Source: a virus (Duplodnaviria; Heunggongvirae; Uroviricota; Caudoviricetes). From it: 11,196 bases of DNA. Where the stretch lies: IMG/VR virus record IMGVR_UViG_2541047814_000003, positions 1 through 11,196 of that record, one strand, 5' to 3'. The translations under genes and the position numbers were made by a program. Below are positions 3,134 to 4,395 of this stretch, piece after piece; position 1 is the stretch's first letter; each line of letters begins with the position of its first letter. Under the pieces are notes generated by a model. It had not been told where the DNA came from, made no database searches, and saw nothing but the letters and a program-made list of their open reading frames with translations.

Positions 3134-4189
3134 TTAACCAATTTTGACGGTAACAAATTTGCGAATATCTGCCGGAACCGGCTGCGGTGCGCTGTGCGTC
3201 TGCACGTACTCAATCGCCGGATCGCCGTCCTCAATCCAGTTTTTCGGGTAAAACATGTTTTGCGTTGCGCCCGTTCTTACTGCGTCCTGATCCATAATCG
3301 CACCATAGGCCACCAGCCCTTTATTGTTGGTGTTGCCCAGGACAAGCAAATCAGGCTCAAGGAAATATTTTTCTGTGCCGTCGCTGTCAGTGTATTTGCC
3401 GGAATAGACGATAAGGGCAATATCGCCCAGATAGCCTTTAAAGCTCACCACTTCGCCCAGGTTTTTACAGGCCAGCTCTGCGGCGGACTCTGAACCACGG
3501 GAAAGATCGTACAGCTCACGGAATTTTTTAAAGCTGCGTAACGTTCGCCATACCTCAGCGCCCATAATCATGACGTTTGCGGGGCAACCAGCCTGATCGG
3601 CGTATAGTTCGATATCATAGATTGGATCGTGGGTTTCTTTGTCCTGCTCTGACCATTTTTTCCCGTCGGCCTGCTCTATGATGTTTTTTTCCGGTATCTT
3701 CCAGTCGATTTCATAGCGCTCTATGCCTTCGCCTTCAATGATGTTTTTTCCGGTCGTTACCGCATTTACCGCCAGCCATTCCACGCGCGCTTTTATGGCG
3801 TTTATCTGGCGGCGCATATTGCCAGTAATCAGGCGCATACGGCGATAGGTAGGGTCGTTAAGCTGTGCCGGATCTTCTCCAGCCATGCGCATGATGGTTT
3901 TCGTTGGATCGATTTCGTGCTTTGGCTTCATGTAGCCAGGTTTAATCGTGCTGGTTTCGTACCCTTTATCGCGCTGAACCTGGCTACCCACCATAGGCGA
4001 ACAAAACGCCGACATGGTGACTTCTTCAATGTCCAGGGTATCCAGCATGATGTTTTGCGTGCTGAATGTCGCCACGTTCGGGAAAAACAGCGTGGTAAAC
4101 AGCGGACTGAATTTAAATTCCGCAATATCCCCGCGATTCAGGTACGCAAAAAGCTGGTTAGTGTTAAGTGCCATTGCTTTTACTGTCAT
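3134..4189 (-). CDS. Major capsid protein, lambda gpE family (HK97 fold)
   Basis: 351 aa versus about 341 for lambda gpE; full-length by-eye alignment to recalled gpE (FKF.PLF..LFF; PGY.KPKHE; DPxYRR.R.I..NMR; WS..DK.T.DP.DDIE.YA; RGS.SE.E.A.K.LG..VS.KG.YGD.A.VVYSG.Y; F.P.N..VLGNT...GL..YG.I.D.DA.R.G; YPKNW...GDPA.E....QSAP); GGGGGT SD. Confidence 0.92.
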   Translation of the reverse strand: MTVKAMALNTNQLFAYLNRGDIAEFKFSPLFTTLFFPNVATFSTQNIMLDTLDIEEVTMSAFCSPMVGSQVQRDKGYETSTIKPGYMKPKHEIDPTKTIMRMAGEDPAQLNDPTYRRMRLITGNMRRQINAIKARVEWLAVNAVTTGKNIIEGEGIERYEIDWKIPEKNIIEQADGKKWSEQDKETHDPIYDIELYADQAGCPANVMIMGAEVWRTLRSFKKFRELYDLSRGSESAAELACKNLGEVVSFKGYLGDIALIVYSGKYTDSDGTEKYFLEPDLLVLGNTNNKGLVAYGAIMDQDAVRTGATQNMFYPKNWIEDGDPAIEYVQTHSAPQPVPADIRKFVTVKIG

Positions 4190-4395
4190 TATTCACCCCC
4201 GTGAACCTGATTCATACCCAGCGCCGCGCGTAAATAGGCGCGTACCTGCCAGCCTGTTGACGGCTCAACCATCGCCAGCGGATCAAGTCCTGCCGCAATG
4301 CCTGCTTTTACGTTCTGCTGGTGGCGTTCCTTGAGCGCCTTCACGATGTCGGGGCTTATGTACACCGAAACACCGCCTTTTTTCTCTTCAGCCAT
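4189..4395 (-). CDS. Hypothetical protein (68 aa), first gene of the head operon
   Basis: ATG at 4395 with AAAGAGGAA SD; stop TAA overlaps the capsid gene ATG (TAATG). Confidence 0.55.
   Translation of the reverse strand: MAEEKKGGVSVYISPDIVKALKERHQQNVKAGIAAGLDPLAMVEPSTGWQVRAYLRAALGMNQVHGGE

What the first reader, a model, noticed from the sequence alone, without database searches (positions are those of the whole stretch)
4189..4395. Unknown 68-aa protein translationally coupled to the capsid gene
It is the first gene of the head operon, has a good SD and its stop overlaps the capsid start (TAATG). I recognise no family. By position it could be a small scaffold, assembly chaperone or size-determining factor.
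Basis: inference. Interest (0 to 1): 0.5.

Follow-up and report, generated by a model that had tools for sequence, protein, structure and literature searches.

The report
Untested small gene before satellite capsid
This is a real, conserved 68-residue protein gene (c1498 of the model E. coli phage satellite EcCICFT073) that always comes first in the satellite's capsid operon. Its function has never been tested; weak evidence suggests a small DNA-binding regulator rather than a scaffold.

Summary
On the minus strand, 4189-4395 is a 68-codon ORF with a Shine-Dalgarno sequence. Its TAA stop shares one base with the ATG of a lambda-E-type capsid gene. Two terminators and a promoter-like region lie upstream, so it opens a transcription unit.

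The window is a Gram-negative PICI (phage-inducible chromosomal island, a phage satellite). The protein is 67/68 identical to c1498 of the model island EcCICFT073. In the supplementary plasmid and primer tables I could search, the earliest gene cloned is c1499, so I found no test of c1498.

The gene is under purifying selection (dN/dS 0.09-0.39). It occurs in 610 of 5426 complete E. coli genomes, next to the satellite capsid gene in every sampled case. It is absent from 50,697 phage records, and the family is tiny.

No family or fold match is significant. The only recurring hints point to ribbon-helix-helix (RHH) proteins.

Three points argue against a capsid-specific scaffold or size factor:
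- Alleles 68% identical sit beside capsids 97% identical.
- The most distant homologue heads an operon with an HK97-type capsid.
- A scaffold-like gene (c1501) already lies downstream.

Best guess: a small regulator or adaptor at the head of a probably LexA-controlled late operon (confidence 0.37). The function remains unresolved.

The parts
4189..4395 (-). 68-aa ORF, the finding. It is the c1498 homologue and a member of phrog_3255. The predicted structure has an extended N-terminus (VSVYIS) and helices at 15-34 and 47-58.
4405..4413 (-). Shine-Dalgarno region AAAGAGGAA of the 68-aa gene (GAGG at 4410-4407)
   Evidence: conserved in all aligned loci
4193..4200 (-). GGGGGTGA, the capsid gene's own SD, embedded in the last codons (G-G-E) of the 68-aa gene. 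The stop TAA and the capsid ATG share base 4189.
4423..4454 (.). Perfect 15+15 palindrome. It contains a LexA-box-like 20-mer (4429-4448, core CTGGATGAACATCCAG at 4431-4446) just downstream of the -10, followed by a T-run.
4452..4500 (-). Promoter-like region: TATAAT (4457-4452), TTGCTC (4479-4474), and conserved TGCAA-type repeats TTGCAAC (4500-4494), TCAAT (4488-4484) and ATGCAAT (4470-4464)
4557..4627 (-). Two terminator-like hairpins after perC that separate the late operon from the upstream genes
3134..4189 (-). Satellite major capsid protein of the lambda gpE family (c1499 homologue). It is at most 47% identical to any phage E protein.
2787..3122 (-). Head decoration protein of the lambda gpD family (c1500 homologue)
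2361..2774 (-). 137-aa protein (c1501 homologue). It resembles the C-terminal part of helper-type S49 protease/scaffold proteins and is the likeliest scaffold-like gene of the operon.
   Evidence: 36% identity, E 1e-9; no BLASTP similarity to lambda Nu3 itself
2256..2302 (-). cos site. cosN GGGCGGCGACCT (2300-2289) and about 30 following bases are identical to the lambda left end.
1613..2155 (-). Nu1-like small terminase subunit, in the position where EcCICFT073 carries the 144-aa gene that matches the published length of RppA

Best explanation
The ORF encodes a real, satellite-specific small protein: c1498 of EcCICFT073-type Gram-negative PICIs. It is the leader gene of the island's late (capsid and packaging) operon.

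I think it is most likely a small dimeric DNA-binding regulator or adaptor with a ribbon-helix-helix-like N-terminal half (strand VSVYIS, then helix PDIVKALKERHQQ). It would act at its own promoter region, where conserved TGCAA-type repeats overlap the -35. That would tune expression of the capsid operon, much as Arc, CopG or omega head and autoregulate their operons.

The operon itself appears to be held off by host LexA. An SOS-box-like operator overlaps the predicted transcription start, so DNA damage would switch it on at the same time as the lambdoid helper.

Shown here: the gene is real, conserved, satellite-restricted and first in the operon, and the promoter, operator and repeat architecture is conserved. 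Inferred: the RHH fold, DNA binding, the target site, the sign of regulation, and LexA control.
For: Real gene: dN/dS is 0.09-0.39. It is present and intact in 610 of 5426 complete E. coli genomes.

Satellite-restricted: there is no tblastn match in 50,697 phage records. Only 14 representatives were found among 1.84 billion proteins.

Always the first late gene. It sits after the replication module and terminators in every locus. This includes the distant L009, where the capsid is HK97-type and not adjacent.

RHH hints, each insignificant on its own:
- The most conserved segment is V9-V18, 'VSVYISPDIV'.
- hhalign places residues 7-26 in register on the RHH strand plus helix A (P 0.0066, probability 5.7%).
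- Two of the three families that matched any member at E<=10 are RHH families, each in one of 13 members: BrnA_antitoxin 0.017 and RHH_1 0.2; the third is lycopene cyclase, 0.17.
- The AF2 monomer shows an extended N-terminus plus two helices, as expected for an RHH protomer without its partner.

Conserved cis elements upstream: TGCAA-type repeats and a TATAAT are found across genera.

The window and L007 alleles share an identical promoter region and identical residues 1-15, although the rest of the protein is only 68% identical.

LexA control. The 20-mer AACTGGATGAACATCCAGTT scores a heterology index of 6.6, against 0.2-9.8 for 22 recalled authentic boxes. The next best 20-mer in the window scores 12.8. 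The core CTGGAT-N4-RTCCAG occurs exactly once per locus, 36-55 nt upstream of the gene, in 12 of the 16 loci that carry a homologue, including CFT073.

Against: The helix A to helix B connection is about 12 residues longer than in canonical RHH proteins.

The outward-facing strand residues (S/T10, Y12, S14) lack the usual Arg, Lys or Asn.

The protein is roughly neutral in charge.

A dimer model could not be computed.

Strict one-base overlap with the capsid gene and near one-to-one co-occurrence with it fit a capsid partner just as well.

The TGCAA repeats could bind another factor.

The LexA matrix was rebuilt from memory.

The palindrome plus T-run is also a good intrinsic terminator (-19.1 kcal/mol, z -6.9).
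Confidence: 0.37

Rival explanations
1. It is a capsid-assembly accessory protein for the satellite's own E-type capsid protein. It could be a chaperone, an anti-aggregation or assembly-timing factor, or an adaptor that lets satellite E/D proteins assemble on helper portal and protease. Translational coupling would make it in step with the capsid protein.
For: There is a one-base stop/start overlap with the capsid gene in all seven E-type loci compared. In E. coli, 610 genomes carry the small gene and 619 carry the satellite capsid, and every sampled row lists both. Phage E genes, which come with protease and Nu3, never have it. Even in L009 it heads a head-gene cluster. The recombination tract that distinguishes the two E. 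coli alleles also covers capsid residues 2-24.
Against: Alleles 68% identical work beside capsids 97-98% identical. L009 pairs it with an unrelated capsid family, two ORFs away. There is no similarity to any scaffold or chaperone. C-terminal conservation is explained by the embedded SD. The capsid gene itself has no known phenotype in EcCICFT073, and only phage-sized DNA is packaged (PMC6092414). A scaffold-like gene, c1501, already exists.
Confidence: 0.3
2. It is a helper-directed or host-directed small modulator. It could bind a helper phage protein such as capsid, scaffold, protease or late regulator. Or it could bind host LexA at the adjacent SOS-like box, as gp7 of phage GIL01 does. Either way it would shift timing in favour of the satellite.
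For: Two deeply diverged alleles (dS 0.54 versus 0.12 in the neighbouring capsid gene) circulate in E. coli on otherwise similar islands. That pattern is typical of satellite proteins that match different helpers. The gene is satellite-only. It sits directly next to the SOS-like operator. A precedent exists for a small phage protein acting on LexA (PMC4551915, seen).
Against: There is no direct evidence of any partner. dN/dS stays below 0.4, so there is no sign of an arms race. I found no interference test of c1498: the cloned series in the searchable supplement starts at c1499. The TGCAA-spacer-TTGC repeat pattern of the satellite promoters was not found in the CFT073 helper prophage region or the L010 helper head region.
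Confidence: 0.15
3. The ORF matters mainly as a translated leader. Its translation would open the mRNA and deliver ribosomes to the capsid start, and the peptide itself would have little function.
For: There is a stop/start overlap, and the capsid SD lies inside the ORF.
Against: The amino-acid sequence is conserved across genera under purifying selection while synonymous sites are saturated. Length is conserved at 64-70 aa. AF2 predicts a folded two-helix protein with pLDDT 73. The capsid gene has its own strong SD.
Confidence: 0.05

Closest known systems
c1498 of EcCICFT073 (CFT073 C_RS07005, WP_000796960.1), member of phrog_3255
   Same: 67 of 68 residues are identical. The promoter, SOS-like box, capsid, decoration and 137-aa neighbours are the same.
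   Different: The window island carries a Nu1-like 180-aa TerS where EcCICFT073 has a 144-aa gene matching the published length of RppA. c1498 has no assigned function. In the supplementary tables I could search, the pBAD18 clone series starts at c1499.
Ribbon-helix-helix operon-leader regulators (P22 Arc/Mnt, pMV158 CopG, pSM19035 omega, RHH antitoxins such as ParD)
   Same: Small size. First gene of the operon, overlapping the next gene. An N-terminal 'hydrophobic-polar' strand followed by a 'PDIVxAL' helix. Repeated short motifs in its own promoter. Weak hits only to RHH families.
   Different: There is no significant profile or fold match. The insertion between the helices is long. The downstream partner is a capsid protein rather than a replication, partition or toxin protein. 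DNA binding is untested.
SaPI operon I (LexA-controlled packaging/capsid-remodelling operon; small dimeric scaffold CpmB, 72 aa)
   Same: This is a satellite late operon with an SOS box at its promoter, and a small helical protein of about 70 aa is encoded in it. The SaPI facts come from Ubeda et al. 2007, as cited in PMC6092414, and from my own knowledge.
   Different: There is no sequence or fold similarity to CpmB. EcCICFT073 does not make small capsids with lambda (PMC6092414). Here the satellite encodes its own capsid protein. LexA binding is predicted only.
Lambda gpW (68-aa head-tail adaptor) and lambda Nu3 scaffold
   Same: gpW has the same length, and both belong to a lambda-type head gene set.
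   Different: BLASTP finds no alignment with gpW at all. The scaffold-like similarity belongs to the neighbouring 137-aa gene, not to this ORF.

Membership tests
c1498 / phrog_3255 family of Gram-negative PICIs | Significant full-length sequence match to the family profile and to EcCICFT073 c1498 | tested here: met
   phrog_3255 at E 8.4e-37 over residues 1-68; 67/68 identical to the CFT073 protein
c1498 / phrog_3255 family of Gram-negative PICIs | Position: first gene after the replication module and terminators, heading the late operon of an int-alpA-primase satellite | tested here: met
Ribbon-helix-helix (CopG/Arc/MetJ) superfamily | Significant sequence or profile match to an RHH family | tested here: not met
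   The window protein has no Pfam hit at E<=10. Single other members give BrnA_antitoxin 0.017 and RHH_1 0.2. hhalign against 12 hand-typed RHH domains gives probability 5.7%, P 0.0066, over residues 7-26 only.
Ribbon-helix-helix (CopG/Arc/MetJ) superfamily | Beta-alpha-alpha protomer topology | tested here: inconclusive
Ribbon-helix-helix (CopG/Arc/MetJ) superfamily | Obligate dimer with an intermolecular two-stranded antiparallel ribbon | not testable with these tools
Ribbon-helix-helix (CopG/Arc/MetJ) superfamily | Sequence-specific binding to repeated operator half-sites | not testable with these tools
   Candidate conserved TGCAA-type repeats exist at 4464-4500, but binding needs an experiment.
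Phage/satellite scaffolding or size-determination proteins (lambda Nu3, SaPI CpmB, P4 Sid) | Sequence or fold similarity to a known scaffold or size factor | tested here: not met
   The Nu3-region similarity belongs to the 137-aa neighbour.
Phage/satellite scaffolding or size-determination proteins (lambda Nu3, SaPI CpmB, P4 Sid) | Co-evolution with, or specificity for, the cognate capsid protein | tested here: not met
   68%-identical alleles sit beside 97-98%-identical capsids. L009 pairs the homologue with an HK97-type capsid.
Phage/satellite scaffolding or size-determination proteins (lambda Nu3, SaPI CpmB, P4 Sid) | Production of satellite-sized capsids | not tested
   From the literature only: EcCICFT073 DNA is packaged as phage-sized DNA with lambda (PMC6092414). 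c1498 itself was never deleted.
LexA (SOS) regulon member, for the operon rather than the protein | CTG-N10-CAG box of low heterology index overlapping the promoter or transcription start | tested here: met
   Heterology index 6.6, within the 0.2-9.8 range of 22 recalled boxes. It is the only strict match in the window, with 0.01 expected by chance. It is conserved in 12 of the 16 loci that carry a homologue.
LexA (SOS) regulon member, for the operon rather than the protein | LexA binding and SOS-dependent derepression | not testable with these tools
   This needs a gel shift, ChIP, or a reporter in lexA mutants.

The most novel reading that the evidence does not exclude
c1498 could be a two-part protein built like an RHH antitoxin. 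An N-terminal ribbon would read the TGCAA repeats of its own SOS-box promoter. The rest of the protein would bind the product of the overlapping downstream gene, the satellite capsid protein, or a helper head protein. Transcription of the satellite's capsid operon would then be fed back on the amount of unassembled capsid protein. That would be a toxin-antitoxin-style 'conditional cooperativity' circuit reused to control virion assembly in a phage satellite. It would also give the hitherto phenotype-less satellite E, D and Nu3-like genes a testable role.
Probability: 0.12. Interest if true: 0.65.

Novelty: new member of a known kind. Interest (0 to 1): 0.38.

Why it matters
EcCICFT073 is the model Gram-negative PICI, yet its capsid block (c1498-c1501) has no known role and c1498 appears untested. 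This block is in about 11% of complete E. coli genomes, including O157:H7, Nissle 1917, ATCC 25922 and CFT073.

If c1498 regulates, or works with, a LexA-gated late operon, that would extend the SaPI 'operon I is SOS-controlled' rule to Gram-negative satellites. It would also give a handle on why these islands keep their own diverged capsid, decoration and scaffold-like genes.

If it is only a minor accessory protein, the finding is ordinary.

Tried and rejected
- Pfam, NCBIfam, PADLOC and PDB sequence searches gave no usable hit for the window protein. The colicin E7 immunity match (E about 0.09) and the lycopene-cyclase match were treated as chance.
- The pattern-based scan of genome contigs with the alignment found no relative.
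- tblastn against the phage collection found no match.
- Lambda gpW, which is also 68 aa, shows no similarity.
- Lambda Nu3 against the 137-aa neighbour shows no BLASTP similarity. The similarity is to the longer S49 protease/scaffold type.
- Rfam and tRNA scans of the window found nothing.
- A search for TGCAA repeats at the alpA promoter, to test whether AlpA binds them, found none there.
- The repeat pattern was also absent from the helper prophage regions I held.
- Literature searches found no paper assigning a function to c1498, and none reporting LexA control of a Gram-negative PICI late operon.

Full report
**What the window is.** All recognisable genes lie on the minus strand.
- Integrase: 9958-11196.
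- AlpA-like regulator: 9339-9635.
- D5/DUF5906 primase: 5849-7681.
- SSB: 5077-5319.
- PerC-family regulator: 4650-4898.
- A head and packaging block after these.

A 98%-identical copy in an E. coli chromosome lies between clpS and cspD. This is the layout of Gram-negative phage-inducible chromosomal islands (PICIs). The late region is nearly the same as in the model island EcCICFT073 in strain CFT073. There the genes are known as c1498 (68 aa), c1499 (capsid), c1500 (decoration) and c1501 (137 aa), followed by RppA, c1503 (PMC6092414, PMC6739421).

**The observation.**
- The ORF 4189-4395 (minus strand) encodes 68 residues.
- GAGG lies 11 nt upstream of its ATG.
- Its TAA stop shares base 4189 with the ATG of a 351-aa lambda-E-type capsid gene (PF03864, E 2e-52).
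- After perC there are two terminator-like hairpins (4610-4627, 4557-4595). They are followed by about 150 bp with a TATAAT and conserved upstream motifs. The ORF therefore does open a transcription unit.

One refinement: the last codons (H-G-G-E, cac ggg ggt gaa) also spell the capsid gene's own Shine-Dalgarno sequence (GGGGGTGA or GGAGGTGA in all loci). The capsid gene need not depend on coupling. The invariant C-terminal GGE may be conserved for RNA rather than protein reasons.

**Is it a real gene?** Yes.
- Homologues of 64-70 aa sit in the same place in Escherichia, Salmonella and Pluralibacter, and in several assemblies and metagenome samples whose source organism was not shown.
- Pairwise dN/dS is 0.09-0.39, with synonymous sites often saturated.
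- It is intact in 610 of 5426 complete E. coli genomes. The satellite-type capsid gene is present at full length in 619.
- All 40 sampled matches to the small gene also list a major capsid protein. All 20 sampled full-length satellite-type capsid matches also list a hypothetical protein, whereas the more distant E-type capsid genes show none.

**How wide is the family?** Very narrow.
- tblastn finds nothing in 50,697 phage records.
- An exhaustive profile search of 1.84 billion representative proteins finds 14 hits, all short enterobacterial-type proteins or fragments.
- It is a satellite-specific gene. Lambda and the helper-type prophages I looked at have D directly upstream of E and no such ORF.

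**Identity with c1498 and what is published.**
- The protein is 67/68 identical to CFT073 C_RS07005.
- The 2018 supplement lists c1498 (68 aa) without a name.
- In the 2019 study, the genes after the ori were cloned one by one to look for lambda interference. In the plasmid and primer tables I could search, the series runs from c1499 onward. The forward primer for c1499 starts inside c1498. I therefore found no test of c1498, although I did not read the whole plasmid table.
- Replacing c1499 with cat gave no phenotype. An island marked with tetA at c1501 still transfers. Only phage-sized DNA is packaged with lambda (PMC6092414).

**Family and fold searches.**
- Pfam, NCBIfam, PADLOC and PDB sequences give nothing for the window protein.
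- AlphaFold2 with 14 sequences gives a modest model (pLDDT 73). It has an extended N-terminus and helices at 15-34 and 47-58.

The fold is therefore unassigned. What recurs among the noise is the ribbon-helix-helix class.
- One member hits BrnA_antitoxin (0.017) and another hits RHH_1 (0.2). These are two of the only three families matched by any member at E<=10; the third is lycopene cyclase at 0.17.
- NikA is the top BFVD hit.
- The best conserved stretch of the family is exactly that segment, VSVYISPDIV.

I read this as a lead, not a demonstration. The link between the helices is about 12 residues longer than usual, and the outward strand residues (S/T, Y, S) are atypical.

**Evidence against a capsid-specific scaffold or size factor.**
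- Two E. coli alleles only 68% identical (dS 0.54) sit next to capsid proteins 97-98% identical (dS 0.11-0.12) and decoration proteins 99-100% identical.
- The recombination tract runs from about codon 16 of the small gene to about codon 24 of the capsid gene.
- The most distant homologue (47% identity) is again the first gene after a replication origin. It is followed by two small ORFs, an HK97-type head protein (phrog_617) and a tailspike.
- The 137-aa gene downstream, not this one, matches the C-terminal region of helper-type S49 protease/scaffold proteins (phrog_53, E 1.7e-10; 36% identity, E 1e-9 to the helper protease in L010).
- Size redirection is not seen for EcCICFT073 (PMC6092414).

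**The promoter region.** An alignment of nine upstream regions shows three conserved blocks.

*TGCAA-type repeats.* The repeats TTGCAAC, TCAAT, a TTGC-N7-GCAA element at the -35 and ATGCAAT end at an invariant TATAAT.

*SOS-like box.* Just downstream lies CTGGAT-N4-RTCCAG. In the window this is the centre of a perfect 15+15 palindrome at 4423-4454.
- With a matrix rebuilt from 22 E. coli SOS boxes recalled from the literature, the window site has a heterology index of 6.6.
- The authentic boxes score 0.2-9.8, with ruvAB (CTGGATATCTATCCAG) at 8.2.
- The next best 20-mer in the window scores 12.8.
- The strict pattern is expected 0.01 times by chance.
- The core occurs exactly once per locus, 36-55 nt before the gene, in 12 of the 16 loci that carry a homologue, including the 45-kb CFT073 stretch.
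- It is missing in L009 and in three prophage-embedded copies (L010-L012).

*T-run and SD.* These follow the box.

Because the box follows the -10, LexA would repress the operon, as in SaPI operon I (Ubeda 2007, cited in PMC6092414). I found no paper reporting this for Gram-negative PICIs.

The same palindrome plus T-run would also fold as a terminator in read-through RNA (-19.1 kcal/mol, z -6.9; weaker in other loci). Both readings remain open.

**Most likely mechanism.** Putting this together, I favour a small RHH-like regulator or adaptor that heads, and probably feeds back on, an SOS-gated late operon (confidence 0.37). A capsid chaperone or assembly-timing factor comes next (0.30). A helper- or LexA-directed modulator follows (0.15). 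A mere translated leader is last (0.05), and purifying selection on the protein sequence argues against it. Only gene reality, restriction to satellites, operon position and cis-element conservation are shown. Fold, DNA binding and LexA control are inferred.

**Novelty and score.** The ORF is already catalogued as a hypothetical gene of a model satellite, so the object is not new. Its function is open, and the most likely answers fall within known kinds of system. Interest is moderate (0.38). The island type is very common in E. coli. The model system and genetic tools exist. The probable SOS box and the untested leader gene give direct experiments on why these satellites keep their own capsid genes.

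Noticed in passing
window 4423-4454 (core 4431-4446), minus-strand promoter of the late operon: A perfect 15+15 palindrome holds a LexA-box-like site (AACTGGATGAACATCCAGTT). 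Its heterology index is 6.6 with a matrix recalled from memory. It is conserved once per locus in 12 of the 16 loci that carry a homologue, including EcCICFT073. This suggests SOS control of the Gram-negative PICI late operon, as in SaPI operon I. It also folds as a terminator-like hairpin (-19.1 kcal/mol) followed by a U-run.
   Followed up: partly
window 4464-4500: TGCAA-type repeats are conserved (TTGCAAC, N4, TCAAT, then a TTGC-N7-GCAA element at the -35). They persist even in the most distant locus, L009. This is a candidate binding site for an unknown regulator. It is not present at the alpA promoter.
   Followed up: partly
window 2256-2302 (minus strand): cosN (GGGCGGCGACCT) and about 30 following bases are identical to the lambda left end, directly upstream of the Nu1-like gene. 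The downstream cosB-like part differs. The 52-aa ORF 2155-2313 overlaps cos and is probably not a gene.
   Followed up: yes
window 2361-2774 (minus strand): The 137-aa protein (c1501 homologue) resembles the last 70 or so residues of helper-type S49 head protease/scaffold proteins (36% identity, E 1e-9; phrog_53 positions 495-567). It is therefore the operon's likeliest scaffold-like gene. It has no BLASTP similarity to lambda Nu3 itself.
   Followed up: partly
window 1613-2155 (minus strand): A Nu1-like 180-aa small terminase subunit occupies the slot where EcCICFT073 has a 144-aa gene matching the published length of RppA. It has no sequence match to any chain in the PDB sequence copy searched. 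This island may therefore recruit helper TerL directly rather than by hijacking helper TerS.
   Followed up: partly
window 4912-5319 (minus strand): The SSB gene aligns over all 136 codons with the intact copy in L001 (97%), but the window ORF ends after codon 80. This looks like an in-frame stop, so the gene is probably a pseudogene in this copy.
   Followed up: partly
window 835-1326: Five copies of a roughly 31-nt repeat (core TCAGCRAGTTACCGC), plus 51-60-nt duplicated blocks, lie just past the last island gene. They may be integrase arm-type or other att-region sites.
   Followed up: no
window 3134-4189 compared with the phage collection: The satellite capsid protein is at most about 47% identical to any phage E protein (Gifsy-1, lambda), while satellite copies are 64-98% identical to each other. 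It is an old satellite lineage of capsid genes rather than a recent capture.
   Followed up: partly
L005/L006 and L010-L012: The same small-gene, capsid and decoration module occurs in helper-embedded PICIs. These are inserted in a terminase (gpA) gene and in a portal gene of lambda-like prophages. The portal-embedded copies lack the SOS-like box.
   Followed up: no
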